Translations under genes and position numbers: made by a program
Shown: one piece after another, positions 21,745 through 38,717 of the stretch
How positions within the stretch are numbered: position 1 is the first letter of the stretch
How the letters are laid out: each line of letters begins with the position of its first letter
Notes under the pieces: model-generated
The model's input: only the letters and a program-made list of their open reading frames with translations
The model's database searches: none
What the model was told of the DNA's origin: nothing
Origin: Candidatus Eiseniibacteriota bacterium
Lineage (GTDB): Bacteria > Eisenbacteria > RBG-16-71-46 > JABDJR01
Length of the DNA stretch: 64,000 bases
Direction of reading: 5' to 3'
Assembly: GCA_963783375.1 (NCBI GenBank)
Contig: CAWANH010000029.1
Span: 1,376,001 to 1,440,000 of the forward strand

Positions 21745-22638
21745 TCATCCCCCGGCCGTGCCGGCCGACCGCCCCACGGCGGCCTCTGCCGGCTCCTGCC
21801 GCTCCCCCCCTTCCCCGGCGTCCACGTTCTTCATGCGCACGGAGAGCGACACCACCGCCACGGTCACTCCGAACAGGCACACGATGGTGGCCCCCATCGG
21901 CCAGTCCCGGGTATAGGACAGCACCGAGCCGAGGATCGAGACCACGAAGGCGATTCCCCAGGCCCAGAAGAGCCGCGACCTGCCGTGCCGGCCCAGGAGC
22001 GTCGCGACCACCAGGGGAACGATCAGGTACGAGAACACGGCCAGGACTCCGGACACCTTCACCGCGCTGGTCACCGCCAGCCCGAAGGCGACGTAGAACA
22101 GGAAGTCCCACTTCTTGACCGACAACCCCCGGCGCCGTGCCTCCTTCGGATCCTCGGAACACAGGGCCAGCTTCCACCGGCTGAAGTACAGGAAGGCCCC
22201 GACGACGGCGTACAGGGCGGCCGTGATCACGATGTCTTTCCAGGCCACCCACCCCAGCGCCTCCCCGCTCAGCGATCCCTGCACGTGCTCCGCCCCGTGG
22301 GGGGCGTTGGAGAGCAGGATCAACGTGGCGGCGGTGGCCAGGGCGAATGAGATCCCGATGAACGCCTCCTGCAGCACGGAGTGGTTCCGGTCCCACAGGA
22401 AGCTGAACAGGGCCGCCCCCAGGATGGTGAACCCGAAGGACCAGAGGTACATGCTTGGGTCGTGCGGCTCCGCTCCGAGGAGAAACGCGACGCTCGCCCC
22501 CAGGGCCGCGATCTGGGCCAGGGCCAGGTCGACGAAGATGACCCCCCGGGCCAGCACGTGCCGGCCCAGGGTGGGAAGCATCAAGGCGAGAAGCAGGCAT
22601 GCCAGGAGCGGCATGGCCATCACGGCGATGAATTCCAT
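21745..22638 (-). CDS. Zn/Mn ABC transporter permease (ZnuB-like)
   Basis: HVLARGVIFVDLALAQIAALG and GVLAVFSYLIVP; multi-TM. Confidence 0.88.
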   Translation of the reverse strand: MEFIAVMAMPLLACLLLALMLPTLGRHVLARGVIFVDLALAQIAALGASVAFLLGAEPHDPSMYLWSFGFTILGAALFSFLWDRNHSVLQEAFIGISFALATAATLILLSNAPHGAEHVQGSLSGEALGWVAWKDIVITAALYAVVGAFLYFSRWKLALCSEDPKEARRRGLSVKKWDFLFYVAFGLAVTSAVKVSGVLAVFSYLIVPLVVATLLGRHGRSRLFWAWGIAFVVSILGSVLSYTRDWPMGATIVCLFGVTVAVVSLSVRMKNVDAGEGGERQEPAEAAVGRSAGTAGG

Positions 22639-22648
22639 GGGTCTTACC

Positions 22649-23566
22649 TCACTCGCCCGACAGGGCCTTGGCGATCGACGACACCAGGACGTCGAACTTG
22701 GAGAACACGTCGTCGGTTCCGGGCAGACCGCCGACCTCGGTGGCGATCTCCACCGCGACGCCGTCCGCCCGCTTGGCCAGCTCCTTGCTGACGTCGGCCT
22801 TGTAGTAGGACTGGTAGAGAACGAGCTTCACCCCGGCCTGCTCCATGGCGTCGGCCAGCTCGGCGATGTGGCGGGGGGAAGGGGGGATTCCCGGCTTCCC
22901 CTCCACGGTTCCGAAGAGCTTCAGCCCGAACCGGTCGGCGAAGTAGACGAAGTTCTTGTGGTAGGTCACGACGGATGTCCCCTTGTAGGGGGCGAGCTCC
23001 GCCTCCCACCGCACCAGGGACGAGTCGATCCGGGCGTCGAACGTCTTGGCGTTGGCGCTGTAGTCGGCCGCGTTGGCGGGATCGAGCTGGGAGAAGACCC
23101 GGGCCAGGTGGTCCGCCACCACCTTCAGGTTCTCCGGATCGCAGTAGTAATGCGGGTTTCCGAGGGGGTGGATGTCGCCCTCCGCCCGGCTCACCGTGCC
23201 CGTCGGCTTCTCCAGAACCTTGACGCCGTCGGAGGCGTCCACGAAACCGGGCTGGCCGGGCTGGATCTTCGGGTTCCGGCTTCCCGGCAGGACCAGGGGC
23301 AACCAGCCGTCGTCCAGCTCCAGGCCGACCGACACGAACACGTCGGCGTGCTGGATCGCCTTCATGAGGCTCGGCTTGGCGGGAACGTAGTGCGGGTCTT
23401 CATACCCCTTGCACAGGGACTTGGCGTCGACGTGGTTCCCGCCCACGAACCGGGCCACCGAGGCCAGGTCGCTGAGCGACGTGGCGACCTTGAGCTTGGC
23501 GAAGGCGGGGGTGGCCAGGGTCAGAGCCAGGGCCGTGAAGGCCAGGTACCGAAAAAGTGCTTTCAT
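22649..23566 (-). CDS. Zn/Mn ABC substrate-binding protein (ZnuA/TroA-like)
   Basis: Signal peptide; DPHY, DIHPLGNPHY, TYH and KPGIPPSPRH. Confidence 0.9.
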   Translation of the reverse strand: MKALFRYLAFTALALTLATPAFAKLKVATSLSDLASVARFVGGNHVDAKSLCKGYEDPHYVPAKPSLMKAIQHADVFVSVGLELDDGWLPLVLPGSRNPKIQPGQPGFVDASDGVKVLEKPTGTVSRAEGDIHPLGNPHYYCDPENLKVVADHLARVFSQLDPANAADYSANAKTFDARIDSSLVRWEAELAPYKGTSVVTYHKNFVYFADRFGLKLFGTVEGKPGIPPSPRHIAELADAMEQAGVKLVLYQSYYKADVSKELAKRADGVAVEIATEVGGLPGTDDVFSKFDVLVSSIAKALSGE

Positions 23567-23629
23567 GGAGTCCTCCTGAACTTGCGGGTCGAATCCGTGG
23601 TTGTCTCCCGTCCGTCGTTCATCCCCGCC

Positions 23630-24718
23630 TCAATACGCATGGGCGGGGTGGTAGCCGATGGTGTAGCTCATCTGCACCATCAACCGCTGGTCGTGGGGCT
23701 TGTACCCCCCGCCGTCGGCCTGGGCGTAGCTGTACTCGAGCCGAACGTAGGAGAACTCCGAAGGCGTCCAGGCCACGTTGGCCGACGCCCGGCTGATCTT
23801 GCCGGCGACCGGGTCCCCGGCGTCGTCCACCAGCACGTCGAAGAAGCTGTCCTTCGCCTGCTCGACCCGGATCCCGGTCCACCAGACCTGGGCCCACCGG
23901 TACTGGAAGGACGCATAGCCGCCGTGCTGTTCCCGGTGGTACTTGCCCGCGACGTAGGTCCCTTTCTCGAGGTACTCGGCCTGGGCGATCCAGCCCCTCC
24001 GGTTGGAGTTCCGAAGCGGAACGTTGCGGAAGGTGAGATCCGCCCCGTAGGCGGCGTGAGGATGACCGTCCTCGCCCTGCCCCCTCAGGAGCGAGGCCCC
24101 CACTTCCATCGTGGTCTCGTCGCTGACGTCGAACACGTTCTTAAGACGGCCCAGGTACGGAACGTTCCCGTGGGCGCTGGATCCGAGGTCGAGAGGGTTC
24201 TCGTCGTCAAGGGGCCCGGCCTGGAAGGCGCCGGCGATCACCTCCGAGTACCACGGGAGCGGGGTGAGCCAGGACGCTTCCACCCCGGCGTCCTTGAAGC
24301 CCTCCTCCCCGATGGTGTTGGCCATGATGACCGGGGCCTGGACGAAGGGAAACGCGTGGGTATGGAGCTGGCCGTGCTTCCCGAACGCGGCGCGGATCTT
24401 CCCCAGCTTGAGCTGGATGCCGGGGATGCTGGAGGTCCGGGCCCAGACCTCCTCCGGGGTCACCTCGTCGGGCCCGAACACCAGGTTGGCCTCGAGCAGC
24501 CAATAGGGGTCCACCACCGAGATGACGGACATCTCGGACTCCTGAAACCGGGGCCCGTAGGGCTCGTCGATGTTGGGGGCGAACTGGTCGAGAAACAGCG
24601 CATTGAACCCGATCGACGGGTTGGCGAGATTGGAATAGATCGAACGCGTCTGGGCGTGACCCGACGATGGAACGCCGGCCAGGGCCAGACAAAGACAGAG
24701 AAGCACGCATCGTCTCAT
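23630..24718 (-). CDS. Putative outer-membrane beta-barrel for metal uptake
   Basis: Signal peptide; FGKHGQLHTHAFPF; alternating beta-strands; C-terminal IGYHPAHAY; first gene of the metal ABC operon. Confidence 0.7.
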   Translation of the reverse strand: MRRCVLLCLCLALAGVPSSGHAQTRSIYSNLANPSIGFNALFLDQFAPNIDEPYGPRFQESEMSVISVVDPYWLLEANLVFGPDEVTPEEVWARTSSIPGIQLKLGKIRAAFGKHGQLHTHAFPFVQAPVIMANTIGEEGFKDAGVEASWLTPLPWYSEVIAGAFQAGPLDDENPLDLGSSAHGNVPYLGRLKNVFDVSDETTMEVGASLLRGQGEDGHPHAAYGADLTFRNVPLRNSNRRGWIAQAEYLEKGTYVAGKYHREQHGGYASFQYRWAQVWWTGIRVEQAKDSFFDVLVDDAGDPVAGKISRASANVAWTPSEFSYVRLEYSYAQADGGGYKPHDQRLMVQMSYTIGYHPAHAY

Positions 24719-26647: not shown

Positions 26648-26731
26648 GAGAGGCCCCGGAAAAGGCGATGCGGAAGCCCGCAATTCCCGGCGCGCCGGTT
26701 CGCGACCGCCGGAGCCGGACCCCCGTTTGCG

Positions 26732-26760
26732 TTGACCCCCGAAATGAATTGAATTAGATT
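26732..26760 (+). promoter_or_regulatory. Sigma-70-type promoter of the HlyD/M50 operon
   Basis: TTGACC-N17-TAGATT in an AT-rich island about 80 nt before ATG 26839. Confidence 0.6.
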
Positions 26761-26838
26761 CTACCCTTGCTCGCAGGCGGGAAACCTCCTCCCGCCCGGC
26801 CGTCGGCCCCTGGGAACCGCACCGCGGAGGCACCGCTC

Positions 26839-27687
26839 ATGACGCGACCCCGGCCCCGAGACCTCCTCGATCGGATCTCCCGCCTCCTCACGATCGTCGG
26901 GGCGGCGCTCCCGGGCGGAGTCCTGCTGATCGGCCTCTTCCCCACCGCCACCATCGCCCAGGGTCCGGAACCCCCTCCCGAGCACCACGCGCTCCTGGAT
27001 ACGGGCCACGTTCCGGAGACCTACGCGGGGATCCTTCTTCCCGGGCGGACCGCGCTCATGAAATCCAAGCACAGCGACCAGGTGATCGAGGTCACCGCCC
27101 GGGTGGGAGCCGCGGTGAAGAAGGACCAGCTTCTTCTTCGCCTCACCGACCGGGAGGAGTCGGTGGCCAGGGACCGGGCCGAGGCGCTTCTCACCAAGGC
27201 CAAGGCGGACTACGGACGGGTGAAGAAGCTCCACCAAGAGGGCGGAACCAGCGACGACGGCCTGGAAACCGCCGAGACCAACCTCCGGCTCGCCCAGGCG
27301 GATTTCGATCTGGCGGCGATCCGCCTCGCCGACCGGTCGATCCGCTCCCCGTTCGACGGCATCCTGGCCGAGCGCTACGTCGATCCCGGGACCTCGGTGG
27401 AGGAAGGGGATCCGCTCCTTCGCGTGTCCTCGGTGAGCCCGCTCCGGATGGAGGCGATCCTTCCCGAGTCGGCGCTCCCCGGCCTCTCCGGTCCCACCGA
27501 GGTGGAGATCACCCCGAGCTACCCGGACACCGTGATCCGGGTCTCGGTGACGCTCGGCTCCATCGTGGTGGACCCGGCCAGCGGGACCTTCCCCCTCCAG
27601 GTCGAGGTGGACAACGCCCGCCGGCTCCTGGTACCGGGGGTGAGCTGCAAGGTCGTGATCCCCGCCCGCTCCGGCGCCTCCCCGTGA
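26839..27687 (+). CDS. HlyD/RND-type periplasmic adaptor (membrane fusion protein)
   Basis: N-terminal TM; VGAAVKKDQLLLRL; coiled coil; IRSPFDG...GTSVEEGDPL; VDPASGTF; SD GGAGG. Confidence 0.85.
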   Translation: MTRPRPRDLLDRISRLLTIVGAALPGGVLLIGLFPTATIAQGPEPPPEHHALLDTGHVPETYAGILLPGRTALMKSKHSDQVIEVTARVGAAVKKDQLLLRLTDREESVARDRAEALLTKAKADYGRVKKLHQEGGTSDDGLETAETNLRLAQADFDLAAIRLADRSIRSPFDGILAERYVDPGTSVEEGDPLLRVSSVSPLRMEAILPESALPGLSGPTEVEITPSYPDTVIRVSVTLGSIVVDPASGTFPLQVEVDNARRLLVPGVSCKVVIPARSGASP

Positions 27688-29744
27688 ACCCCGGCCGCAC
27701 GTACAAGCTCCGCGACGATCTGGTCATCCGCCGGCGGGTCTTCTCCGGCGACGTGAAGTACGTGGTCAAGGACCCCCTCCGCCTCGACTACTACACCGTG
27801 GACGAGCTGAGCTACACCCTCCTCTCCCTCTGCGACGGGAAGCGGGGTCTGGCCGAGCTCAGCGCGGCGGCGGACCGGTTCTTTCCGGGGATGGGGCTGA
27901 ACGCCCTGACCCTGCTCAACTTCTACGAGACCTACCGGTCCTTCCACTTCTTCGAGGACGCCTGGGAGCGGAACGTGCTCCTGATCGAACGCCGCCGGAC
28001 CAACCGGGCCAAGACCCTGAAGCGCGCCTTCGCCAACCCCCTGGAGATCCACCTCCCGGCCTGGAACCCCGACCGGTTCTTCGGAAGGATCGTGAAGCCC
28101 CTCCGAGCGCTCTTCACCGTGAGGGCCCTCCTGGTCTACGCGGCGGTGTTCCTGGGGGCGCTCTGGATCATGCTCACCAACGCCGACCGCTTCGCCCTGG
28201 GCTTCGGGGAGCTCTGGGTCATCCAGGGAAAGGCGTTTCTGGGCATCGTCACTCTGTGGTGCATCCTCCTCTTCACCGTGGTGCTCCACGAGATGGGCCA
28301 CGGCCTGACCTGCAAGCACTTCGGGGGCGGCGTGTTCAAGATCGGGTTCCTGTTCCTCTACTTCAACCCCTGCATGTATTGCGACGTGACCGAAAGCTAT
28401 TTCTTCGAGAACAGGAACCACAAGCACGCGGTGACCCTGGCCGGCGGGATCGTGGATCTCATGACCGCCTCCATCGCCACCTTCATCTGGTACCTCACCC
28501 CCTCCGACCTCTTCGTGAACCAGGTGGCGCACCGGGTGGCGCTGTTCAACGGGGTTACCGGGATCCTGGTCAACTACAACCCGCTCATGAAATACGACGG
28601 GTACTTCCTGGTGGCCGACCAGCTCGGGATCCCCAACCTCCGCGGCGAGTCCTTCCGGTTCCTGGGGATACGCATGCGTCGTCTCTTCGGCCTCCCCCAC
28701 GAGGACGAGCTGGTGACCCCGCGGGAGCGGCGCATCTTCTGGATCTTCGGGATCGCCGCCGTGCTCTACAGCGCCTTCGTGCTCTGGTTCGTGGTGCACA
28801 TGGTGGGGGGGTTCCTGATCGCGCACCTCCGGGCCGCGGGCTACCTCATCACCGCGGCCCTGGTGCTCCTCATGACCCAGCGATACATCCGGGGACTGGG
28901 AGGCTTCATGCGCTTCTTCGCCGCCGACAAGGCCGGACACTTCCGCCGCTGGCGACTGCCCTACGGAGCGGGGGCGGCGGTGCTCCTGGCGTTCCTCTTC
29001 CTGGTCCCCCTCCCCCGTCACGTGCGGGGCGGGTTCACCTTCCGCCCCGGAACCGAGATGGTGCTCCGGGCCCGGGAAGCGGGGGTGGTGGCGCGGGTCG
29101 ACGCCGGCGAGGGGGAGACGGTGGCCGCGGGGGCGGCGCCGGTGATCGTCCGCTCCGAGGCGGTCACGCTCCGGGCCGGGCGCGCCCGCGCCGCCCTGGC
29201 CGAGGCCTCGGTGGGACGCACCGCGGCCCAGGCCGCCCACGATCCCGCCGAAGCGGCCATCCGCGAAGCGGACGCGGCGTCCGGACGCTTCCTCGCCGAC
29301 CAGATGGCCCGCCGGGAGGACCGGCTGAGCCCCACCGCTCCCTTCGCGGGGATGGTCCTCACCCCACGCCTCGACGAGAGGGTCGGTTTGGCGGTGGCGC
29401 CGGGCGACACCCTGTGCGTGCTCGGGAACCTGGGTACCCTTCGGGCCGCGGTCCTGGTGGACGAGCAGGACCTGGGGATCCTCGATGCCGGCGCCCCGGT
29501 GGAGCTTCGCGCCGAAGCCGATCCCGGCCGTCTCCTTCGGGGACGGGTGGAGGGGATCGCTCCCGAACCCTCGGGAGGCGCGGTGCGGCGGCTCTACAAG
29601 GTCACGGTGGAGGTCGAGAACCCGGACGGCCGCCTCCGCCCCGGCATGACCGGGACCGCGCGGTTCGGCGCGGGGAAGGCCACCCCCTTCCGCCACCTCA
29701 CCGGGGAGATGACCCGGCTCATCCGCATCCAGTTCTGGATCTGA
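27684..29744 (+). CDS. PqqD/RRE-like domain plus M50 site-2 zinc metalloprotease plus HlyD adaptor fusion (YydH-like)
   Basis: N-terminal YVVKDP..YY....LLSLCDGKR..EL; HEMGH (about 28287) and NYNPLMKYDGY; C-terminal APFAG and LRPGMTG. GTG start overlaps the upstream stop. Confidence 0.85.
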   Translation: MNPGRTYKLRDDLVIRRRVFSGDVKYVVKDPLRLDYYTVDELSYTLLSLCDGKRGLAELSAAADRFFPGMGLNALTLLNFYETYRSFHFFEDAWERNVLLIERRRTNRAKTLKRAFANPLEIHLPAWNPDRFFGRIVKPLRALFTVRALLVYAAVFLGALWIMLTNADRFALGFGELWVIQGKAFLGIVTLWCILLFTVVLHEMGHGLTCKHFGGGVFKIGFLFLYFNPCMYCDVTESYFFENRNHKHAVTLAGGIVDLMTASIATFIWYLTPSDLFVNQVAHRVALFNGVTGILVNYNPLMKYDGYFLVADQLGIPNLRGESFRFLGIRMRRLFGLPHEDELVTPRERRIFWIFGIAAVLYSAFVLWFVVHMVGGFLIAHLRAAGYLITAALVLLMTQRYIRGLGGFMRFFAADKAGHFRRWRLPYGAGAAVLLAFLFLVPLPRHVRGGFTFRPGTEMVLRAREAGVVARVDAGEGETVAAGAAPVIVRSEAVTLRAGRARAALAEASVGRTAAQAAHDPAEAAIREADAASGRFLADQMARREDRLSPTAPFAGMVLTPRLDERVGLAVAPGDTLCVLGNLGTLRAAVLVDEQDLGILDAGAPVELRAEADPGRLLRGRVEGIAPEPSGGAVRRLYKVTVEVENPDGRLRPGMTGTARFGAGKATPFRHLTGEMTRLIRIQFWI

Positions 29745-29790
29745 GTCCCCGGCCGCGGGGCCGGGTGGAGTGGACGATCGAGGGGAAACC

Positions 29791-31962
29791 ATGAACGTGG
29801 ACGAAACCGGGGCGACGAAGGCGGCCCGCGACCGCGAGCTGGAAGCGCTCTATGCCCAGCTCACCACCAGCGCGGCCCGTCTCATGGTGGTGCACGAAGC
29901 CGGGAACATCCTGAGCTCCACCCACGATGCCGAGGAGGTGGCCCGGGGGCTCCTGGACGTGATCGCCGAGGCGGCCTTCGCGGGGATCGGCTGCGTGGCG
30001 TCGATGGAGCGGGACGAGCTGAAGATCCTGGCCGCCCGCGGCCTCGAGGATCACGAGGTGGACGAGCTCTCCGCCGACCCCAACGAGGCCGCGATCTGGT
30101 TCGCGGTGGCCGACGGCGAGGGGCTCCGGCGGGCCGCCGATCTCGCCGCCGAGCTGGGTCTCGGAGGAGAGGCGGACGCGGGGGACGGCGCCGCCCCGAA
30201 AGACCGCGCCGCCCCGGAAGACGGTGCCGACGGGGAGGCGGACGCGGACACCGAGGCCTCGGAGGACGATGCGGACGACTGGGGGGATGACGGGACGACG
30301 GAGGTTACGGAAGACGGCGGCGACGCCGAGACGGGGGATGACGGCGCGGACGGCGACGCCTTGGAGGAAACCGCGGACGGCGGGGAAGACGACGACGCGG
30401 AGGCCCCCTCATCCGCCCCCCACTTCGACATCTACCTCCCCCTCCGGGTCGAGGATCGGAACCTGGGGGTGCTGGCCCTGGGGGCGCGGGTGGACCATGC
30501 CGCCTTCGGCGGCGACGACGAGGCCCTGGCCCGCTCGCTCTCCTCCCACCTGGCCCTGGCCCTGAACCACGCCTACCTCTTCGCCGAGCGCACCCGGCGG
30601 ATCGAGCAGTTGAACGCGCTCCTCAGGATCAGCCGGGAGCTCACCAGCACCCTGGACCTGGAGCGCGTGCTCTCGACGATTTCCCAGATGGTGGGCATGG
30701 TGGTCCCGAACCGTCGGACGGTGGTGGCGCTGGTCCCCGGAGGCAAGGTCGCCCTCCGCGGCAGCTCCGACCCGGACTTCAAGGTCAAGGAGGCCGGCCG
30801 GGATCCGTTCCTCCCCGTGCTCCGCTGGGTCCAGGGTTCGCGGCAAAGCCTCAACACCTGCCGCCAGCTCCTGGAAGACGACCCGGAAGCCGCGGGGCGG
30901 GACGTGCTGCTCCCGTGGCTCTCCGGCGCGGACGGCCCGCGCGGGCTCGCCGTCCTGCCGCTGGAAGACGACCAGGGCCCCCTGGGGCTTCTGGCCATGG
31001 AGACCGACGAGGACCGCCCGCCCCTGGATGACGACGACGAGGAGCTGGTGACCATCCTGGCCAACCAGACCACGGTGGCCATCCGAAACGCCGAGCTATA
31101 CCAGCAGGTCCCGATGATCGGCGTCCTGGAGCCGATGCTGGCCAAGGCGCGGCAGGTCAGCCGGGGGAACCACCGGAAGCTGGTGACCCGGGCCGCCGTC
31201 GCGGCGGTGCTTCTGGGGATCGGCTTCCTGGTGCCGCTTCCGAGCTGGGTGGCCGGCGACGCCGTGGTGCGCCCGGCCCGCCCGGTGGCGCTCCGGGCGG
31301 GGACCGAGGGCACGGTGGACGAGGTGCTGGTGCACGAGGGGGAGACGGTGCCGGCGGGAATGGTGGTGGCCCGGCTCCGCCGGGACGACCTGGAGGTCCG
31401 GCTCGCCGATACCCGGGCCGGCATCCGCCGGGCTGCGGCCGAAGGAGCGAGGGCCCGCGCCGAGGGGGATTTCGCCACCTACCGGGCCCGCCAGGCCGCC
31501 CTGACCGAGCTCCAGGCCACCGAGAGCTTCCTCACCGGACAGCTCGCGGCCACCGATCTCACCGCGACGGCGGCGGGGGTGATCCTCACCCCGGACGTGG
31601 AGCGCCTGCGGGGCATCCACCTGGAGCGCGGCGAGACCTTTCTCGACATGGCCGATCTCTCCACCATGGACGTGGAGGTCGGGGTTCCGGAGCAGGATCT
31701 CGGCTGGGTGGAGCCCGGGCGCGCCGCCCGGCTCAAGGTCCACGCCTTCCCCGGACGCACCTTCCGGGGAACGGTGGTCCGGATCGCCCCCAAGGCCGGT
31801 CCGGGAGGCGAGTTCCGGGTCACGGTCCGGGTCCCCAACCCGGAGGGGGCGCTTCGGCCGGGGATGACCGGACGCGCCCACCTGGCCGCGCCCGCGGAGC
31901 CGGTTCTCCGGAAGTGGCTCCGCCCCCTGGCCCGGCGGCTCCGGCTCAAGTTCTGGGTCTGA
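29791..31962 (+). CDS. Tandem-GAF domain plus HlyD adaptor fusion with Asp/Glu-rich insert
   Basis: Two GAF-like segments (LPLRVEDRNLGVLAL; LTSTLDLERVL...LANQTTVAIRNAELY), one TM, VLVHEGETV lipoyl hybrid and LRPGMTG. Confidence 0.82.
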   Translation: MNVDETGATKAARDRELEALYAQLTTSAARLMVVHEAGNILSSTHDAEEVARGLLDVIAEAAFAGIGCVASMERDELKILAARGLEDHEVDELSADPNEAAIWFAVADGEGLRRAADLAAELGLGGEADAGDGAAPKDRAAPEDGADGEADADTEASEDDADDWGDDGTTEVTEDGGDAETGDDGADGDALEETADGGEDDDAEAPSSAPHFDIYLPLRVEDRNLGVLALGARVDHAAFGGDDEALARSLSSHLALALNHAYLFAERTRRIEQLNALLRISRELTSTLDLERVLSTISQMVGMVVPNRRTVVALVPGGKVALRGSSDPDFKVKEAGRDPFLPVLRWVQGSRQSLNTCRQLLEDDPEAAGRDVLLPWLSGADGPRGLAVLPLEDDQGPLGLLAMETDEDRPPLDDDDEELVTILANQTTVAIRNAELYQQVPMIGVLEPMLAKARQVSRGNHRKLVTRAAVAAVLLGIGFLVPLPSWVAGDAVVRPARPVALRAGTEGTVDEVLVHEGETVPAGMVVARLRRDDLEVRLADTRAGIRRAAAEGARARAEGDFATYRARQAALTELQATESFLTGQLAATDLTATAAGVILTPDVERLRGIHLERGETFLDMADLSTMDVEVGVPEQDLGWVEPGRAARLKVHAFPGRTFRGTVVRIAPKAGPGGEFRVTVRVPNPEGALRPGMTGRAHLAAPAEPVLRKWLRPLARRLRLKFWV

Positions 31963-32080
31963 GATCGCCGGTTCCGAGGCGCCGCGACGGATCGCAGGGG
32001 GAGGACGACCCGGGATCGCGCTGACAACCGAGCTGGCGGTCAGATGCCCACCGCAGCAGTGGGGTCATGAATAACCCGGG

Positions 32081-33242
32081 CTAGTGTCATGCGTCGGAAG
32101 TACGTTTACAGAATCTAGCAATTGAGGCAAGGATCTCATCTGCAGATTTTGTCCACACGAGGGGCTTGGGGCTCTGGTTGGTAACCTCGATGTAGAGCTT
32201 GATAGCCTGATTGAGCCGTTTGACGCTCCGATGAGTGGCTCGACGTAGCGCCTTGTCGGTCAGTGCGGCAAACCACCGCTCGACGAGGTTCATCCAGGAG
32301 GAGTAGGTCGGCGTGAAGTGGAGGTGGAAGCGCGGGTTTCGAACGAGCCACCGCTTCACCGCGGGCACCTTGTGGGTCTGGTAGTTGTCGAGGATGAGGT
32401 GAACGTCGAGGTCATCGGGGACCTCGGCGTCGATCGTTTTCAGGAAGCCGAGAAACTCTTTCGCTCGATGGTGTTTGTGAAGACTTCCAATGACTCGCCC
32501 GGACTTCACGTCCAGCGCAGCGAACAGGGTCGTGGTGCCGTGGCGAACGTAGTCGTGCGTGTGCCGTTCGCACTGCCCTGGTCGTAACGGCAGGAGAGGC
32601 TGTGTGCGGTCGAGAGCTTGGATCTGGGACTTCTCGTCCACGCACAGCACGAGCGCCCGCTCCGGTGGATCCATGTACAGCCCCACGACATCGCGTACCT
32701 TGTCGATGAACAGGGGATCATTGGAAAGCTTGAAGGTATCGGCCCGGTGAGGCTGGAGCGCAAAGGTGTGCCAGATGCGTCGCACGGTGGTGGCGCTCAT
32801 TCCCGAGACCTCCGCCATGGAGCGGGTACTCCAGTGGGTGGCTCCCCTGGGTGTCGAGTCGAGGGTTTTTGCGATGACGCGTTCAACCTCTGCATCGGAG
32901 ACCTTGCGAGGAGCTCCGGGGCGAGGCTCATCGGTGAGCCCGTCGAGTCGGCGCTCAAGAAAGTTCGAGCGCCACTTGCCGACCGTGACCCGGGTGATGT
33001 GAAGGTGCTCGGCCACCGCGGAATTGGTCCACCCCTCGTCCGCGAGAAGCACGATGCGGGCACGGGTGGCAAGTCCTTGCGCCGTCTTGGGGCGGCGTGC
33101 CCAACCCTGGAGTACCTGACGTTCTTCGGTAGAAAGCCTGAGCGACTCGAGCGTGCGTCCACGTGACATGGCAACCCTCCTTTTGGAGGAGCATGCCGCA
33201 TGGGACTCCGGATGTATAGTTATTTCTGGCGCAAGACACTAG
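32081..33242 (-). mobile_element. IS630-family insertion sequence
   Basis: Imperfect ~30-bp terminal inverted repeats: CTAGTGTCATGCGTCGGAAGTACGTTTACA versus reverse complement of the right end CTAGTGTCTTGCGCCAGAAATAACTATACA. CTAG at both ends; lower GC than the host. Confidence 0.9.
32087..33169 (-). CDS. IS630-family DDE transposase
   Basis: HTH (GLTDEPRPGAP), CVDEKSQIQAL, HDYVRHGT, ILDNYQTHK and TPTYSSWMNLVERWF. Confidence 0.95.
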   Translation of the reverse strand: MSRGRTLESLRLSTEERQVLQGWARRPKTAQGLATRARIVLLADEGWTNSAVAEHLHITRVTVGKWRSNFLERRLDGLTDEPRPGAPRKVSDAEVERVIAKTLDSTPRGATHWSTRSMAEVSGMSATTVRRIWHTFALQPHRADTFKLSNDPLFIDKVRDVVGLYMDPPERALVLCVDEKSQIQALDRTQPLLPLRPGQCERHTHDYVRHGTTTLFAALDVKSGRVIGSLHKHHRAKEFLGFLKTIDAEVPDDLDVHLILDNYQTHKVPAVKRWLVRNPRFHLHFTPTYSSWMNLVERWFAALTDKALRRATHRSVKRLNQAIKLYIEVTNQSPKPLVWTKSADEILASIARFCKRTSDA

Positions 33243-34789
33243 GAGCCCGTCCGAGTAACGATCAAGAGCGGGCTCCCTCTGGTCATGCGCCGCACGGGAT
33301 TTGTTAGCACCCGGGTGTTTTCGGGTTCGCCCGTTGATCGGGCCGCCTTGGATCGCGAGGGGAGCCGCCCCTCGGAGGCGGTTCCGCCCCCTTTTAGGCC
33401 GATCCGACCGCCTTGGCCCACTTCAGGAGGTTGTGGGCCGTGCAGATCAGGTCCCACTCCCCCCGAACCTTCGCGAAGCCCCGCAGCAGGAACTGGCGGA
33501 ACCCCCGGGCTTGCTTCATCTGTCCGAACACCGGCTCCACCGTTTGTTTCCTCAACCGGTACCGGCTCCGGTGTCCCCCCTTGCGTAGCCGCGTCCGCAT
33601 CGCCGCGGTCCGGGGCCCCGGGTTCTTCTCCTTCCCGTCGGTCGGCGACGCGCTCCCGTGCTTCTGTCGTCCCGTCGCCACGTACCCCCGGATGTGCCGC
33701 CGATCCAGTTCCTTCAGGTTCTCCTCCGAGCAGTACCCCGCGTCCGCCGACACCTCCTGCGCCTGCCGACCCGTATTCTCCTCGACTTGCGTCACCAGCG
33801 GAACCAGCTCGCCGGCATCCGACGCCGACTGCGTCACCCCCCGCGCCACGATCACCTGGCTCCCCGCATCCACCGCCGCCTGCGCGTTGTACCCCTGGAT
33901 GAACCCGTCCTTCGTCTTCAGGATCCGGCTCTCCGGATCCGTGAAGTTCCGCTGCGCCCGCGCCGGAGGTTCCCCCTTCGGCGTCTTCTGAGGGCGTCCC
34001 CGGCCCCGCTTCTCCGGCTTCTCGGCCGCCTCCACCCCCGCCTGCTCCCGCGCCTCCGCCTCCAACGCCGCCTTCGCCTCCCGGATCTTCGCCAGCCGCT
34101 TCTGCTTGTTGGCGACCCACTCCGGCAGCTCGTCACCCCGCCGGTCCGGCCCGTACTCCTCATCCTCCTCCGCGTCCACCCGCCCCGCCTCCTTCAGCCA
34201 CCGCTCGATCTCCCCCCGCAGCCGCCCCTCCTCCCCCTTCATCCGACCGTAGCTCATCGCCTTGTGCTTCGACGCGTTCGCCTTCACCTTCGTCCCGTCC
34301 AGCGACACGTGCCCCAGCTGCACCAACCCCGCTTCCCGGCACAACCGCAACACCTGCACGAACAGACCTCCCAGCCCCTCCAAATGCCGCTTCCGGAAGT
34401 CGCTGATCGTCCGAAAGTCCGGCTTCTGCAGCGCCGTCACCGCCATGAAGTCCACCCGCTCCTCGCACGCCCGCGCCAACCGCCGCGAGGAGTACACCCC
34501 CTGGCAGTACCCGTACAGCAGCAGCGCCGTCATCATCACCGGGTGGTACGGCGGATACCCCCGCGCCTCGGTGTACTCCTCCAGGATCGCGGACAGATCC
34601 AGGGTCTCCCGGACCGTATCCCGCACCAGATGCGCCAGATGGCCCGGCGGCACCAGTTCATGAACCGAGGGAGGCAGCAACCACACTTGATCGACGTCCC
34701 AGGGACGGAAGGTCTTGCTCATGACCTCCAAAAACCACACCCCCACCGCCCTGTCTAGATCAAATCCGGGGGATTACTCGGACGGGCTC
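33243..34789 (-). mobile_element. IS1182-family insertion sequence
   Basis: Perfect 16-bp TIRs GAGCCCGTCCGAGTAA (33243-33258 and 34774-34789) flanked by CTAG direct repeats (33239-33242 and 34790-34793). Confidence 0.92.
33394..34722 (-). CDS. IS1182-family transposase
   Basis: GYPPYHP, PDFRTISDFR, LDGTKVKANAS, NFTDPESR, ADAGY and RKQTVEPVFG; SD GGAGG before ATG 34722. Confidence 0.95.
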   Translation of the reverse strand: MSKTFRPWDVDQVWLLPPSVHELVPPGHLAHLVRDTVRETLDLSAILEEYTEARGYPPYHPVMMTALLLYGYCQGVYSSRRLARACEERVDFMAVTALQKPDFRTISDFRKRHLEGLGGLFVQVLRLCREAGLVQLGHVSLDGTKVKANASKHKAMSYGRMKGEEGRLRGEIERWLKEAGRVDAEEDEEYGPDRRGDELPEWVANKQKRLAKIREAKAALEAEAREQAGVEAAEKPEKRGRGRPQKTPKGEPPARAQRNFTDPESRILKTKDGFIQGYNAQAAVDAGSQVIVARGVTQSASDAGELVPLVTQVEENTGRQAQEVSADAGYCSEENLKELDRRHIRGYVATGRQKHGSASPTDGKEKNPGPRTAAMRTRLRKGGHRSRYRLRKQTVEPVFGQMKQARGFRQFLLRGFAKVRGEWDLICTAHNLLKWAKAVGSA

Positions 34790-35149
34790 CTAGGAGGCTC
34801 CCAGTTCCTGGAGCCGCCGGCGGGCCGAGGCCTCGTCCGGGCGCTGATTCAGAATCGCCTCGACGTTCACCACCTGGAGAACGGCGCAGACCCGCTGGGA
34901 ACAGCCGTAGATGGCCAGCCCTCCCTTCTCCTGCTGCACCCGGGTCAGGAGGCGGATCAGGATCCCCACCCCCGCGCTGCTCAGAAACTCCACCTTGGAC
35001 ATGTCCAGGAGCATGGAGGTGGCCTTCTCCCCCAGCCTCTCCGAGATGAAATCCCAGAACTGGGTCGCCCCCAGGGCGTCGAGCCGGCCCACGGGGTGAC
35101 AGTGAAGAACGGTGCTCAGATCCTTGTCCGTCTCGCACGTGATGCGCAT
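34790..35149 (-). CDS. STAS-domain protein (anti-sigma-factor antagonist-like)
   Basis: GRLDA...LLDMSKVEFLSSAGVGIL; its TAG stop is part of the IS target CTAG. Confidence 0.85.
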   Translation of the reverse strand: MRITCETDKDLSTVLHCHPVGRLDALGATQFWDFISERLGEKATSMLLDMSKVEFLSSAGVGILIRLLTRVQQEKGGLAIYGCSQRVCAVLQVVNVEAILNQRPDEASARRRLQELGAS

Positions 35150-35226
35150 GATTCCCCCTGTTGATCGTTTACCCGACCGATGCAGAAGCCCCGAGCCGAA
35201 GCGCCATCGGGAGCTTCCTCAGATTC

Positions 35227-35240
35227 TGTGGAAATCCACA
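35227..35240. promoter_or_regulatory. Candidate enhancer (UAS) for the sigma-54 activator
   Basis: Palindrome TGTGGA-AA-TCCACA centred about 110 bp upstream of the predicted sigma-54 TSS. Confidence 0.45.
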
Positions 35241-35316
35241 ACGGAGAGTCTTCCGGGATTTCCCCGCCGCTTCGCTAATCGTTTGTACCCAAGGTAGTAA
35301 TAAGATCATCCCAGAG

Positions 35317-35333
35317 TTGGAACGGACCGTGCA
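35317..35333 (+). promoter_or_regulatory. Sigma-54 (-24/-12) promoter of the repeat-peptide gene
   Basis: TTGGAACGGACCGTGCA has GG and GC separated by exactly 10 nt and resembles TGGCACG-N4-TTGCA; a GAFTGA activator is encoded next door. Confidence 0.7.
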
Positions 35334-35426
35334 AAGGTGAGGGGCCATGACGGGGCCCGGTGCGGAGCGAACCTTCTCCGGCCGGAGACGGAGGCGCAAA
35401 GACCACAATCCGAGGAGGTTCTTATC

Positions 35427-36047
35427 ATGGCTACCCGCTCGTTCAAGCGACCGCAGGCCCGACCGACCACCGCCACCACCGTGAAGATAGATGTCGCCGG
35501 CGACTTCATCGACGACATTAGCGGGTTGGCGCCCGCGGAGATCGCCAAGCTGAGTCCGAAGCAGATCGTGGCGCTCGCTCCGAAGCAGATCGCCGCCCTC
35601 GCCCCCAAGCAGGTGATGGCGCTCGCTCCGAAGCAGATCGCCGCCCTGGCGCCCAAGCAGGTGGTGGCGCTGGCCCCCAAGCAGATCGTGGCCCTGGCCC
35701 CGAAGCAGATCGCCGCCCTCGCCCCCAAGCAGGTGATGGCGCTGGCCCCGAAGCAGATCGTGGCCCTGGCTCCGAAGCAGATCGCCGCCCTCGCCCCCAA
35801 GCAGGTGCTGGCGCTGGCCCCGAAGCAGATCGTGGCCCTGGCTCCGAAGCAGATCGCCGCCCTCGCCCCCAAGCAGGTGCTGGCGCTGGCCCCGAAGCAG
35901 ATCGTGGCCATGGCCCCGAAGCAGATCGCCGCCCTGGCTCCGAAGCAGATCGCCGCCCTCGCCCCCAAGCAGGTGATGGCGCTCGCTCCGAAGCAGATCG
36001 CGGCCCTGGCGCCCAAGCAGATCGCCGCCCTCGCCCCGGTCGGCTAG
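35427..36047 (+). CDS. 206-aa protein: 33-aa leader plus 21 tandem octapeptides LAPKQ(I/V)(A/V/M/L)A plus LAPVG; candidate secreted precursor
   Basis: SD GAGGAGGT at 35412-35419, ATG 35427, synonymous codon variation between repeats, own terminator. Confidence 0.85.
   Translation: MATRSFKRPQARPTTATTVKIDVAGDFIDDISGLAPAEIAKLSPKQIVALAPKQIAALAPKQVMALAPKQIAALAPKQVVALAPKQIVALAPKQIAALAPKQVMALAPKQIVALAPKQIAALAPKQVLALAPKQIVALAPKQIAALAPKQVLALAPKQIVAMAPKQIAALAPKQIAALAPKQVMALAPKQIAALAPKQIAALAPVG
35526..36029 (+). repeat. 21 x 24-bp coding tandem repeat
   Basis: CC(G/C)AAGCAG(ATC/GTG) recurs every 24 nt. Confidence 0.97.
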
Positions 36048-36063
36048 AGCGCCCAAAGCCCAC

Positions 36064-36104
36064 GAAAGAGAGGGACCCCCTTCGGGAGGTCCCTCTCTTC
36101 GTTT
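36064..36104. terminator. Intrinsic terminator, probably bidirectional, between the convergent peptide and activator genes
   Basis: Stem GAGAGGGACC...GGTCCCTCTC with a central cTTCGg loop, flanked by A-rich and T-rich stretches. Confidence 0.8.
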
Positions 36105-36118
36105 CGGGTTCATCCGTC

Positions 36119-37447
36119 TCAGTTCCATCGACCCCGTTCGAATGCTTCGGCCAGCCGGAGGAGATCCTCCTGGTAGGCTTGGGGCATCTTGGCGAACGCT
36201 TTCCGGAGAGCCAGGAACCGCTGGCCGGGGGTGCGGCCGCCCCCTCGCATGGCCCCGGTCGCCGCGGCCAGAAAACGCTCCAGCTTGGCCCGCACCCGAG
36301 GCTCCAACGCCCGCTCCCCCGCGACCTTCACCGCGGCGGCCTCCACGTTCCAGCGTTCCTGGGCCAGGGTACGGAACCCCTCCCCCTGGAAGTAATAGGT
36401 GAGCCCGCTCCGGGAGCAGACCGGGATCTGGCGCGGATCGTTCACCTCGCGCTGGCGGATCGTCAGCATGCGCTCGGCGAGGGCGATGTTGAAGTGGTAG
36501 CGGCGGAGCTGGGCCAGAACCCACCCCCCCACCTCGGCCGCCGGGGCCTCGGGGTCGCCGGCGGGGCTCTCCGGAGTCGGAGCGCCCGATCCGAGCATGG
36601 GTTCGGCGAGACGGTGCCGGGAGAAAACCGCCACCACGTGGCGATCCCGGATCTCCTCGCCCCCCCGGGCCTCGATGAGGAGCGCGCTCACGATGTTCTG
36701 AAGCTCCCGGACGTTGCCGGGAAAGGAATAGACCATGAGCCGCCGGAGCGCGTCGGCACGGACGACGGGCCGGGGACGTTTCCACTCCTGGGCGTGGCGA
36801 TCGAGGAAGTGGTCGATCAGGGGCGGAATGTCCTCGCGGTGCTCCCGAAGCGGGGGCAGGCGGATCGGAAAGACGTTCAGACGGTAGTAGAGGTCTTCGC
36901 GGAAGCGGCTCTGGCGCACTTCGCCCCGGAGGTCCCGGTTGGTGGCGGCCACCACCCGCGCTCCACTCCGGCGGGTTCCCTCGCCGCCCACCGGGGTGAA
37001 GGTGCCTTCCTGGAGGACGCGGAGCAGCTTCACCTGGGCGGAGAGCGTCATCTCGGCGATCTCGTCCAGGAACACCGTCCCTTCGCGGGCGCGCTCGAAG
37101 ACCCCGGCGTGGGCGCGGGAGGCGCCGGTGAAGGCGCCCGGCACGTGGCCGAAGAGTTCGCTCTCCAGGAGGGTCTCGGGGATGGCCCCGCAGTTCACCG
37201 CCTCGAACGGCGCGCGCCCGTCGCTTCCGTGCTCGTGGATGAGCCGGGCCACCAGTTCCTTGCCGGTTCCCGACTCCCCCTCGAGGAGGACCGGGGCCCG
37301 GGTCGTGGACACGCTCTCCAGATCGTCCAGCACGGCCATCATGGCCGCGCTCCGGCCCACGATGCGAACCCCTTTTCCCTTCCCGGCCCTTCGCCCGCCG
37401 CTCATCGGGTCCGCATCGGCGTGTTCGTATCCTCCCTCGGTGTGCAT
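36119..37447 (-). CDS. Sigma-54-dependent enhancer-binding protein lacking an N-terminal sensor domain
   Basis: GESGTGKE (Walker A), ESELFGH..GAFTGA, FLDEI, FREDLYYRLNV and PGNVREL. The AAA+ domain starts about 30 aa from the N-terminus (alternative start 37405). Confidence 0.93.
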   Translation of the reverse strand: MHTEGGYEHADADPMSGGRRAGKGKGVRIVGRSAAMMAVLDDLESVSTTRAPVLLEGESGTGKELVARLIHEHGSDGRAPFEAVNCGAIPETLLESELFGHVPGAFTGASRAHAGVFERAREGTVFLDEIAEMTLSAQVKLLRVLQEGTFTPVGGEGTRRSGARVVAATNRDLRGEVRQSRFREDLYYRLNVFPIRLPPLREHREDIPPLIDHFLDRHAQEWKRPRPVVRADALRRLMVYSFPGNVRELQNIVSALLIEARGGEEIRDRHVVAVFSRHRLAEPMLGSGAPTPESPAGDPEAPAAEVGGWVLAQLRRYHFNIALAERMLTIRQREVNDPRQIPVCSRSGLTYYFQGEGFRTLAQERWNVEAAAVKVAGERALEPRVRAKLERFLAAATGAMRGGGRTPGQRFLALRKAFAKMPQAYQEDLLRLAEAFERGRWN

Positions 37448-37474
37448 AGTCGCACTGTAGCACCACTGGAATGA

Positions 37475-37496
37475 GATTTGAATTACCTTTCAAATC
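37475..37496. promoter_or_regulatory. Palindromic operator-like site in the divergent activator/SDR intergenic region
   Basis: GATTTGAA-N6-TTCAAATC perfect 8-bp inverted repeat, AT-rich. Confidence 0.5.
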
Positions 37497-37688
37497 ACCC
37501 CGACGGACCTGCCCAACCGGAGGGCGCAACGAAGCATCCCCCCCGCCGCTCTCGACTTACCCCGTAACCTCAGCCAGAATATGGGCCGCGGCGGCGGGGG
37601 GAAACGGGCTCCGCCGGCGGACCGGACGCGGTGCGGATCCCAGGACGGACCGGGGGTCGAACCCCGGCAATCAAAATGGAGGGGTGCG

Positions 37689-38717
37689 GTGCGGAAACCA
37701 GTGGTTCTCATCACCGGGGCGAACGGAGAGGTCGGGCACGGGCTCATCCAGGAGCTGGCCCACGACGGCCACGAGGACATCCTGGCCATGGACCTGGACC
37801 CGGTGGAGGAGTCGCTGGCCGGACTCTGCCGGGCCACCTTCGTGGGGAACATCCTCGACCGTCACCTGATGGAACGCATCGTGAGCGAGTACGAGGTGCG
37901 GGAGATCTACCATCTCGCCGCCCTCCTCTCCACCCGCGCGGAGTACACCCCCGAGACCGCCCACCAGGTGAACGTGGAGGGGACGATGGGGCTCCTCCAG
38001 CTCGCCATGGAGCAGTCGAGCTGGCGCGGCGAACCGGTGAAGTTCCTCTACCCCAGCTCCATCGCGGTCTACGGCCTCCCCGATCTCGCCACCAAGGAAC
38101 GGGCGGGGAAGGTCAAGGAATACGAGTGGACCAACCCCACCACCATGTACGGCTGCAACAAGCTCTACACCGAGAACCTGGGCCGCTACTTCGCCCAGCA
38201 CTACCGGCAGCTCGCGGCGGAGCTGGACAGCCGCCGGGTGGACTTCCGCTGCCTCCGGTATCCGGGGATCATCAGCGCGGTCACCATGCCCACCGGGGGC
38301 ACCAGCGACTTCGCCCCGGAGATGATCCACGCCGGGGCCAAGGGCGAGCCCTACGCCTGCTTCGTGCGCGAGGATTCCATCATCCCCTTCATGGCCATGC
38401 CGGACGCGATCAAGGCCATCCTGAGGCTGGCCGGGGCGGAGGTGGGACACCTGAAGCGCCGGATCTACAACGTCACCAGCTTCAGCCTGGCCGCCGGGGA
38501 GATCCGGGACCGGGTGGTGAAGGCCTTCCCCTCCGCCGACATCACCTTCGAACCGGATCTCAAGCGCCAGGCCATCGTGGACACCTGGCCCCTGGACGTG
38601 GACGACGGCCCCGCCCGCCGGGAGTGGGGCTGGCAGCCGGAGTACGACGCCGACCGCGCCTTCGACGAGTACCTGGTGCCGGAGATCCGGAAGCAGTATC
38701 ACGCGGCGAAGGGCTGA
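37689..38717 (+). CDS. NAD-dependent epimerase/dehydratase SDR (L-threonine 3-dehydrogenase-like)
   Basis: ITGANGEVG, YHLAALLS, PSSIAVYG, YGCNK and GGTSDF; GTG start. Confidence 0.85.
   Translation: MRKPVVLITGANGEVGHGLIQELAHDGHEDILAMDLDPVEESLAGLCRATFVGNILDRHLMERIVSEYEVREIYHLAALLSTRAEYTPETAHQVNVEGTMGLLQLAMEQSSWRGEPVKFLYPSSIAVYGLPDLATKERAGKVKEYEWTNPTTMYGCNKLYTENLGRYFAQHYRQLAAELDSRRVDFRCLRYPGIISAVTMPTGGTSDFAPEMIHAGAKGEPYACFVREDSIIPFMAMPDAIKAILRLAGAEVGHLKRRIYNVTSFSLAAGEIRDRVVKAFPSADITFEPDLKRQAIVDTWPLDVDDGPARREWGWQPEYDADRAFDEYLVPEIRKQYHAAKG

What the first reader, a model, noticed from the sequence alone, without database searches (positions are those of the whole stretch)
26732..37447. Candidate undescribed system: sigma-54-driven octapeptide-repeat precursor with an RRE-M50 protease/triple-HlyD export apparatus
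Seen: three consecutive HlyD-type adaptor genes (plain; PqqD/RRE-like plus M50; GAF-GAF), then a STAS gene, a leader+21x8-aa repeat gene with its own -24/-12 promoter, SD and terminator, and a sigma-54 activator. Removing the two IS elements puts the STAS stop about 120 bp from the last adaptor gene, so the locus was once compact. Established: PqqD-like RREs bind RiPP leader peptides, and the M50 protease YydH processes the B. subtilis epipeptide. Inference: a leader-guided processing/secretion system in which an intramembrane protease-adaptor fusion replaces the usual C39-ABC transporter. The product could be many short octapeptides or one repetitive surface or filament protein. No ABC ATPase, TolC or classical RiPP modifying enzyme lies in this locus.
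Basis: partly seen in the sequence, partly recalled or inferred. Interest (0 to 1): 0.92.

Follow-up and report, generated by a model that had tools for sequence, protein, structure and literature searches.

The report
Pump-less exporter with octapeptide-repeat cargo
A membrane protease with a predicted leader-binding domain and three secretion adaptors, but no pump, sits beside a small repeat-protein gene that is its likely cargo; the same pairing, with varied cargo, recurs in many bacteria and points to a likely export route that has not been tested.

Summary
The three adaptor genes, STAS, the 33-residue leader plus 21 eight-residue repeats, the sigma-54 site and the activator are all present. 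A same-genus genome shows the IS-free state, with the STAS stop 118 bp from the last adaptor.

The middle gene is an RRE–site-2-protease–MFP fusion (predicted fold matches lasso-peptide RREs and SpoIVFB/RseP) with an intact metal site. Small leader-bearing ORFs lie beside 110 of 171 homologous loci. 120 of 169 basic ones have a sigma-54 site, against 9 of 667 control genes. Other loci carry large proteins with LExRIAP/LEPR leaders.

It is not wholly undescribed. Kamneva et al. 2015 described the ABC-less M50/HlyD/GAF triad (with a second SecA, no RRE, no cargo). Daptides use an RRE–site-2 protease. The repeat scores as Pfam PF20080. This scan found the module before in at least 21 other genomes; I found no paper linking it to cargo.

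Best reading (0.5): leader-guided cleavage and export through a TolC encoded elsewhere; here the cargo is more likely one cationic helical rod than octapeptides. Binding, cleavage, export and the energy source are untested.

The parts
26669..26682 (.). Perfect palindrome TGCGGA-AG-CCCGCA upstream of the adaptor operon; candidate regulator site (inferred)
   Evidence: pattern defined after the fact; 3 copies in the genome, 1.7 expected
26732..26760 (+). sigma-70-like promoter (TTGACC ... TAGATT) for the adaptor operon
   Evidence: consensus match only
26839..27687 (+). Adaptor A: membrane fusion protein with an N-terminal hydrophobic (signal-like) segment
27684..29744 (+). Protein B: RRE (res ~5-92), site-2/M50 intramembrane metalloprotease (H202-E203-x-x-H206, N297-x-N299-P300...D305), about 6 hydrophobic segments, MacA-like adaptor (res ~430-677)
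29791..31962 (+). Protein C: two GAF domains, one predicted TM segment (res ~469-487), adaptor domain
32081..33242 (-). IS630-type element inserted at CTAG (not part of the system); an identical copy lies on contig C13
33239..34793 (-). Second IS (DUF772/DDE_Tnp_1 transposase, 20-nt perfect inverted repeats) inserted at the same CTAG; the STAS stop codon is kept
34790..35149 (-). STAS-domain protein (anti-sigma-antagonist type)
   Evidence: kept in G007, G110, L082
35227..35240 (.). Perfect palindrome TGTGGA-AA-TCCACA, 90 bp upstream of the -24/-12 site; candidate activator-binding site (inferred)
35317..35333 (+). sigma-54 (-24/-12) promoter-like site
35427..36047 (+). Likely cargo: 206 aa, basic leader with F-K-R-P motif, 21 x 8-aa repeats (L-A-P-K-Q-I/V-x-A), net charge +21, no signal-like hydrophobic segment; Pfam PF20080
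36057..36104 (.). Hairpin between the convergent repeat and activator genes; likely bidirectional terminator
36119..37447 (-). sigma-54 activator: AAA+ domain with GAFTGA, no receiver or sensor domain, conserved unusual C-terminal region

Best explanation
This locus encodes an RRE-protease-adaptor fusion, two more adaptors and a sigma-54-type small gene, and it likely works as a leader-guided export machine without an ABC pump whose likely cargo is the 206-residue repeat protein. Inferred steps: (1) the activator fires the -24/-12 promoter, possibly tuned by the STAS protein and the GAF domains; (2) the cargo has no Sec signal, so it is made in the cytoplasm; (3) the RRE of protein B binds its N-terminal leader; (4) the M50 site cuts off the leader, probably after a proline; (5) the cargo passes through the membrane part of B (with C's anchor) into a mixed A/B/C adaptor sleeve docked on one of the genome's TolC-family channels. 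In this clade the product is more likely a single cationic rod of short stacked helices than free octapeptides (about 60:40). Shown: anatomy, intact catalytic residues, conserved gene pairing, promoter enrichment. Predicted: the folds. Untested: binding, cleavage, export, the TolC partner and the energy source.
For: Residues 5-92 of the B model match the lasso RREs 6jx3_B (Z 9.8, rmsd 2.7, 84 aligned) and 5v1u_A (Z 9.6); residues 130-374 match SpoIVFB 8vjl_A (Z 10.3) and RseP 7w6z_A (Z 10.4, res 182-315); the C-terminal part matches MacA (Z 17). H202, E203, H206 and D305 are invariant in 15, 27 and 53 aligned homologues. B scores 173 bits on the daptide leader-peptidase model NF041824. PF20080 occurs in 4 of 201 phylum genomes, exactly the 4 that hold a close B (4 of 206 at E<=1e-110). 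G007, G110 and L082 keep A, B, C, STAS, repeat and activator together, G110 in a different order. Small basic, LExRIAP or repeat ORFs lie beside 110 of 171 non-redundant B loci (74 of 101 with >=1.5 kb flanks); sigma-54 sites precede 120 of 169 basic ORFs versus 9 of 667 control genes and 1.4% of shuffles. Large proteins (831-1574 aa) with basic LE(E/D)RIAP leaders flank B in 6 loci, and a LEPR-leader ORF followed by cadherin/VCBS genes sits with TolC in L080, so the family handles what look like extracellular proteins. Leader types follow B clades on the tree. The genome has 7 TolC-family genes and an rpoN. For a rod: period 8 is kept in 4 of 4 complete homologues at 52-62% B identity, with more polar first units; the model has pLDDT 79-89 over residues 31-130, with one 5-residue helix per unit.
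Against: No energiser: no ABC ATPase in the locus and no secondary SecA in the genome, and a +21 cargo would move outward against the membrane potential (established bioenergetics; inference). No TolC is linked; the nearest is 164 kb away. B is below the NF041824 cut-off (173 vs 300), and the window's leader lacks the ELExMEAP/LExRIAP motif; only M, F6, R8 and P9 are invariant in 4 homologues. 27 of 101 well-flanked loci gave no small cargo with my filter, and some planctomycete loci show none at all. The loci are the best 80 hits of two capped scans, dominated by Acidobacteriota, so they are not independent. The repeat model is weak (mean pLDDT 66.6, five models 36-67, residues 164-206 under 50, 4 sequences), and its best PDB match is only mesothelin (E 3e-4, TM 0.42). 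A sister clade also keeps its 7-residue period at 59-66% B identity, so period conservation is not peculiar to a folded rod.
Confidence: 0.5

Rival explanations
1. Same machine, but the protease works along the chain and releases many octapeptides ending in proline (six distinct sequences here), which act as signals or antimicrobials: a multi-core RiPP-like precursor without modifying enzymes.
For: Every unit ends in L/M-A-P, and the daptide leader ends at P(-1). In other clades the repeat unit copies the leader's last motif (ExRKAP in L203/L217, DRANP in L164, ELEEKEAP in L189), and most Acidobacteriota cargo are 20-40 aa with a K-P-L junction and a short variable tail. In one clade the unit changes completely at 79-84% B identity.
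Against: In this clade the period and the hydrophobic pattern are held while surface residues vary, and the first units are graded, as in a capped solenoid. There are no spacers and no modifying enzymes. Processive cutting of a soluble chain by a site-2 protease is not something I know of (recalled).
Confidence: 0.2
2. Regulated proteolysis rather than export: B binds and destroys the small protein at the inner membrane, and this feeds a sigma-54/partner-switching circuit; the adaptors couple it to envelope state.
For: bEBP in 78 and STAS in 44 of 171 loci (cluster-based counts that miss some). In several loci a HATPase_c kinase, an FHA-GAF-SpoIIE phosphatase, an anti-sigma-type kinase and a second predicted RRE-zincin protein sit alongside. 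No energiser is present.
Against: Three full adaptor domains are kept throughout. TolC and large adhesin-like proteins with the family's leaders flank B in other phyla. A degradation signal would not need 21 ordered repeats.
Confidence: 0.15
3. The repeat protein is co-regulated but is not a substrate (for example a cytoplasmic polycation, or an ordinary ALTTAQ-family protein sent out by a classical type I system); the triad moves something else.
For: It scores as PF20080. The 3 proteobacterial ALTTAQ proteins I examined are 1032-2913 aa and lie beside a classical ABC/HlyD/TolC set (1 of 3) or glycosyltransferases, not beside this triad. The genome has other ABC ATPases.
Against: The window's repeat is short, Pro/Lys-rich and Thr/Ser-poor (T+S 0.04 versus 0.21-0.26), has a leader those three proteins lack, and occupies the position that unrelated leader-bearing ORFs hold in other clades. 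It co-occurs 4 of 4 with the close B.
Confidence: 0.15

Closest known systems
T1SS-related module of Kamneva, Poudel and Ward 2015 (PMC4452313; parts 1-5 of 7 read, i.e. the main text and supplement legends; supplement files not opened)
   Same: Peptidase_M50-HlyD, HlyD/biotin-lipoyl and GAF-HlyD genes together; no ABC transporter; TolC only sometimes adjacent; the M50 protein proposed as the inner-membrane pore; function unknown.
   Different: That module is defined by a secondary SecA_DEAD protein, which this genome lacks. In the text read there is no RRE, no substrate, no leader and no sigma-54/STAS regulation. Planctomycete and plasmid homologues fall far from the window's clade.
Daptide leader peptidase MpaP (RRE fused to an intramembrane site-2 protease; NCBIfam NF041824; bioRxiv 10.1101/2023.03.08.531785, passages read)
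   Same: RRE + site-2 protease fusion, 173 bits over residues 83-409; short precursor ORFs nearby; the daptide leader motif ELExMEAP resembles the LExRIAP leaders beside many B homologues.
   Different: B carries a C-terminal adaptor domain and works with two more adaptors; it is below the family cut-off; there are no MpaBCDM enzymes or ABC transporter; the window's cargo has no ELExMEAP and no C-terminal Thr.
Classical type I secretion and C39-peptidase ABC (PCAT) bacteriocin exporters (established knowledge, recalled)
   Same: Membrane fusion proteins and presumably a TolC channel; in PCATs a leader is bound and cut by the inner-membrane component.
   Different: No ABC domain or C39 domain; three different adaptors, two of them fused to cytoplasmic/membrane domains; the protease is an intramembrane zinc enzyme; no double-glycine leader.
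Pfam PF20080 ALTTAQ repeat proteins
   Same: 8-residue period with L at 1 and Q-I/V at 5-6; score above the cut-off; nearest Atlas clusters are ALTTAQ (0.86, lead only).
   Different: Short, cationic and Pro-capped rather than giant, acidic/neutral and Thr-rich; it has a leader; its neighbours differ. Homology versus convergence is not resolved; the L082 homologue does not hit PF20080.
YydH/LiaK epipeptide maturation metalloprotease (NF058609)
   Same: M50-type HExxH protease linked to a ribosomal peptide; 43 bits.
   Different: Far below the cut-off (225); no radical-SAM epimerase or ABC exporter here.

Membership tests
Kamneva 2015 T1SS-related module | Peptidase_M50 protein with HlyD domain and TM helices | tested here: met
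Kamneva 2015 T1SS-related module | Separate HlyD/biotin-lipoyl protein and GAF-HlyD protein | tested here: met
Kamneva 2015 T1SS-related module | No ABC transporter in the locus | tested here: met
Kamneva 2015 T1SS-related module | Secondary SecA_DEAD protein | tested here: not met
   One full SecA plus a 99.9% identical contig-end fragment in a 97%-complete genome
Daptide pathway | RRE fused to a site-2 protease | tested here: met
   (predicted fold)
Daptide pathway | NF041824 at or above its cut-off | tested here: not met
   173.5 versus 300 bits
Daptide pathway | Precursor with ELExMEAP leader and C-terminal Thr; MpaB/C/D/M enzymes | tested here: not met
   The repeat ends in V-G and has no such motif; no enzymes in the locus
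Classical T1SS / PCAT | ABC transporter (with C39 domain in PCAT) in the operon | tested here: not met
Classical T1SS / PCAT | TolC partner | tested here: inconclusive
   7 OEP genes elsewhere, none linked
Classical T1SS / PCAT | One-step export of the substrate | not testable with these tools
   needs an experiment
M50 / site-2 protease | HExxH plus a downstream NPDG-like Asp ligand in a membrane fold | tested here: met
   invariant columns; fold; the Pfam score itself is below cut-off (14.9 vs 27.2)
RRE (PqqD-like) | Three strands followed by three helices, matching solved RREs | tested here: met
RRE (PqqD-like) | Binds the cognate leader peptide | not testable with these tools
   needs a binding assay
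PF20080 ALTTAQ repeat | Score above the gathering cut-off | tested here: met
   98.1 vs 26.4; G007 118.7, G110 35.8, L082 no hit
PF20080 ALTTAQ repeat | Common ancestry with the giant Thr-rich members | tested here: inconclusive
   composition, size and neighbours differ from the 3 examined; low complexity prevents a phylogeny
sigma-54 bEBP-promoter pair | AAA+ activator with GAFTGA, GG-N10-GC site, rpoN in the genome | tested here: met
sigma-54 bEBP-promoter pair | This activator drives this promoter | not testable with these tools
   inferred from linkage and the conserved upstream palindrome

The most novel reading that the evidence does not exclude
A distinct, widespread secretion system: an RRE reads an N-terminal leader, and an intramembrane protease doubling as the inner-membrane channel cuts it and feeds the cargo into a three-adaptor/TolC conduit with no ATPase. 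Cargo ranges from ~20-residue basic peptides through repeat rods like this one to giant LExRIAP/LEPRxLL surface proteins, which would supply the missing export route for the LEPRxLL giants.
Probability: 0.35. Interest if true: 0.93.

Novelty: new variant of a known kind. Interest (0 to 1): 0.7.

Why it matters
The ABC-less M50/HlyD/GAF module has had no substrate since it was noted in 2015. The pairing found here gives it small, defined candidate substrates, a candidate reader domain and a candidate cut, which makes its function testable in a heterologous host. If it exports, it is a trans-envelope route built on a protease rather than a pump. It could also explain how giant LEPRxLL-type proteins leave the cell; a 2026 preprint (10.64898/2026.03.19.712371, passages read) says its two LEPRxLL giants lack known transport signals. 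This clade adds a sensor-less activator and a cargo predicted to fold as a short helical rod, unlike the fast-changing repeats seen in Acidobacteriota.

Tried and rejected
Complex prediction of B (1-345) with the repeat's first 60 residues gave no answer (score 0.10, mark 0.32); it is not used as evidence either way. No RNA holder was listed for 34800-37450. The protein search with the repeat found nothing among 8000 candidates (low complexity, lengths 113-361 only). The sigma-70 scan of 31900-37700 found 0 promoters. The wide structural search of the repeat model never ran, so only Foldseek was used for it. The careful tree did not finish; the quick IQ-TREE result was used, after dropping 40 K-rich rows and 26 cargo-less metagenome rows and merging identical sequences. 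The palindrome is not general: within 2 mismatches in 12 of 19 own-phylum/L082 cargo promoters (shuffles 21%) but only 18 of 149 others (shuffles 9.5%), and it was not found upstream of adaptor A in the 4 relatives checked. No second F-K-R-P or LExRIAP precursor among 7524 SD-ATG ORFs of 18-300 aa in this genome. Rejected: that the IS elements break or belong to the system; that the repeat is a chance ORF; that typical ALTTAQ giants use this triad (0 of 3 examined); that a second SecA powers it here. Literature searches without a paper on the cargo link: ALTTAQ (0 papers); RiPP recognition element + M50 + HlyD (0); LEPR-XLL/LEELEERIAP terms (4 listed, 1 read in passages); M50 + membrane fusion protein + PqqD + secretion (1, unrelated by its listing); HlyD/M50/GAF/TolC/peptidase (1, unrelated by its listing); peptide zinc metalloprotease/K16922/YydH terms (107 papers, 20 listed, none containing those three terms); SecA_DEAD terms (3 listed). 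Subscription journals and bioRxiv supplements were not searchable; the daptide supplement may list HlyD-fused RRE-peptidases.
Full report
Observation. All elements are at the stated places. Adaptor A (26839-27687), B (27684-29744) and C (29791-31962) form one overlapping or closely spaced run. Two IS elements follow at a CTAG target. Then come STAS (minus strand), the repeat gene (plus strand) and a convergent sigma-54 activator. The repeat protein is 33 residues of leader plus 21 units, with every Pro-to-Pro gap exactly 8. Same-genus genome G020 carries the empty site: C stop, 118 bp, a single CTAG, STAS stop. So the locus was compact and the insertions break no gene.

Protein B. The AlphaFold model (53 sequences, mean pLDDT 84.6) starts with three strands and three helices. 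These match solved lasso-peptide RREs at Z 9.6-9.8 over 82-84 residues; the membrane part matches SpoIVFB and RseP at Z 10.3-10.4, and the C-terminal part MacA at Z 17. These Z values are modest for single domains in a 686-residue model, but each covers most of its domain and agrees with sequence: PqqD hits 23 of 53 homologues and Peptidase_M50 51 of 53 at E<=0.05. The metal ligands are invariant in all three alignments. The best named model is the daptide leader peptidase, below its cut-off. Hydropathy puts the RRE and both GAF domains before the membrane anchors and the adaptor domains after them, so recognition would be cytoplasmic and the adaptors periplasmic (inference).

Close relatives. 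In the phylum, 37 of 201 genomes have a B hit better than 1e-40 (counted). Four have a close one, and exactly those four have PF20080. G007, G110 and metagenome locus L082 keep all six genes, G110 in another order. Their repeat proteins are 202-252 aa, with M-x4-F-x-R-P at the start and period 8. Their activators lack a receiver domain and share a conserved C-terminal region. These B proteins form a five-row clade with 100% support (quick method, rows dropped as told under Tried and rejected).

The wider family. B has 666 relatives at E<=1e-40 among 8000 candidates. Titled loci include Acidobacteriota, Gemmatimonadota, Planctomycetota, Bdellovibrionota, Ca. Eisenbacteria and others. I called genes in 183 loci (171 non-redundant) and looked within 2.5 kb for SD-preceded ORFs of 18-260 aa that are Lys-rich, carry LExR..P, or are periodic. 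The filter was set after seeing the first examples, and three false rows were removed by hand. 110 of 171 loci had such an ORF, as did 74 of 101 with at least 1.5 kb on both sides. Of the 27 without, 5 have large proteins with a basic LE(E/D)RIAP leader, 1 a LEPR-leader ORF, and at least 4 a small ORF the filter missed (L111, L182, L189, L212); several planctomycete loci show nothing. The promoter test is independent of the filter: sigma-54 sites lie 40-130 bp upstream of 120 of 169 basic or other ORFs, 2 of 16 LExRIAP ORFs, 9 of 667 control genes and 1.4% of shuffles. Cargo types run from 20-40 aa basic peptides, through leaders plus 5-14 aa repeats, to proteins over 1400 aa. TolC is adjacent in some proteobacterial loci but was not seen in the Acidobacteriota or own-phylum loci. 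The sample is the best 80 hits of each of two capped scans and is dominated by kin, so these counts describe the family; they are not a test across independent lineages.

Mechanism. The parts fit leader-guided processing and export: a cargo without a Sec signal, a leader reader fused to a protease fused to an adaptor, two further adaptors, and seven TolC-family genes elsewhere in the genome. The open problem is energy: there is no ABC ATPase in the locus, no second SecA in the genome, and the cargo is +21. For the product, the model gives one short helix per unit with good confidence over residues 31-130 and a disordered leader; its best solved match is mesothelin, weakly. Conserved period and graded first units favour a folded rod. 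Proline-ended units and the leader-like repeats of other clades favour multiple peptides. I put these at about 60:40 within the export reading. A palindrome 90 bp upstream of the -24/-12 site has a twin before the adaptor operon (2 of 3 genome copies, 1.7 expected), which hints at joint control; the pattern was chosen after the fact.

What is known. Kamneva, Poudel and Ward 2015 (parts 1-5 of 7 read) described the M50-HlyD, HlyD and GAF-HlyD trio without an ABC transporter, tied it to a secondary SecA_DEAD protein, and proposed the M50 protein as the pore; they name no RRE or substrate. The daptide preprint (passages) describes RRE-site-2-protease fusions as leader peptidases with an ELExMEAP leader ending at P(-1). 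My eight literature searches found no paper joining the two or naming cargo for the trio. This scan's own notes list 21 earlier findings of the same kind in at least 21 other genomes; the ones listed were mostly Acidobacteriota or Gemmatimonadota, and none resembled B by sequence. I had reached the cargo association before that look-up; it gave me the 2015 paper.

Verdict. Real, conserved and functionally unexplained. It is a SecA-less, sigma-54-wired variant of a module noted in 2015, with a candidate cargo that makes it testable. It works like a PCAT or daptide leader-peptidase exporter but is a member of neither. Interest 0.7.

Noticed in passing
L044:2621-3229: The G110 repeat has Cys at position 5 in 8 of 21 units, mostly alternate ones; these would line up along a solenoid and could form disulfides or bind metal.
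   Followed up: no
L203:13838-14953, L217:13112-14248, L164:13658-14632, L189:5946-6989: A second, adaptor-less protein family beside loci whose cargo repeats an ExRKAP/ELEEKEAP-type motif; L203's copy has a weak zincin hit. L189 also has a MATCAP-family carboxypeptidase. Possibly the enzymes that cut multi-core precursors.
   Followed up: partly
L167, L168, L191, L192, L197, L199: Large proteins (831-1574 aa) starting with a Lys-rich stretch then LE(E/D)RIAP beside B, mostly in Bdellovibrionota; they bridge the Lys-rich and LExRIAP leader types.
   Followed up: partly
L056 and L062: Genomes G019 and G094 carry both the three-adaptor type with basic leaders and a stand-alone RRE-M50-HlyD with LExRIAP peptides; in L056 the two are adjacent.
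   Followed up: partly
L081:9690-10010, L194:1033-1362: A DUF3467 gene directly beside B or its adaptors in two distant phyla.
   Followed up: no
window 21745-24718: Zinc-uptake set (ABC-3 permease, ZnuA, porin-like) just upstream, without an ATPase gene between them; a similar set with an ATPase-like gene flanks the G007 locus. It may be plain synteny.
   Followed up: no
window 50972-51210 and 52393-54081: Three copies of an 80-bp unit in a non-coding stretch, and an HNH-domain ORF with 15-aa and 9-aa tandem repeats.
   Followed up: no
window 16917-17828: Four 222-bp (74-aa) repeats at 96% identity in a protein with Big_7 and FlgD-Ig domains; the true start probably lies upstream of my call at 17071.
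   Followed up: no
G000:C28:1212402: Third copy of the palindrome, between an RND operon and a two-gene unit; no link to this system seen.
   Followed up: partly
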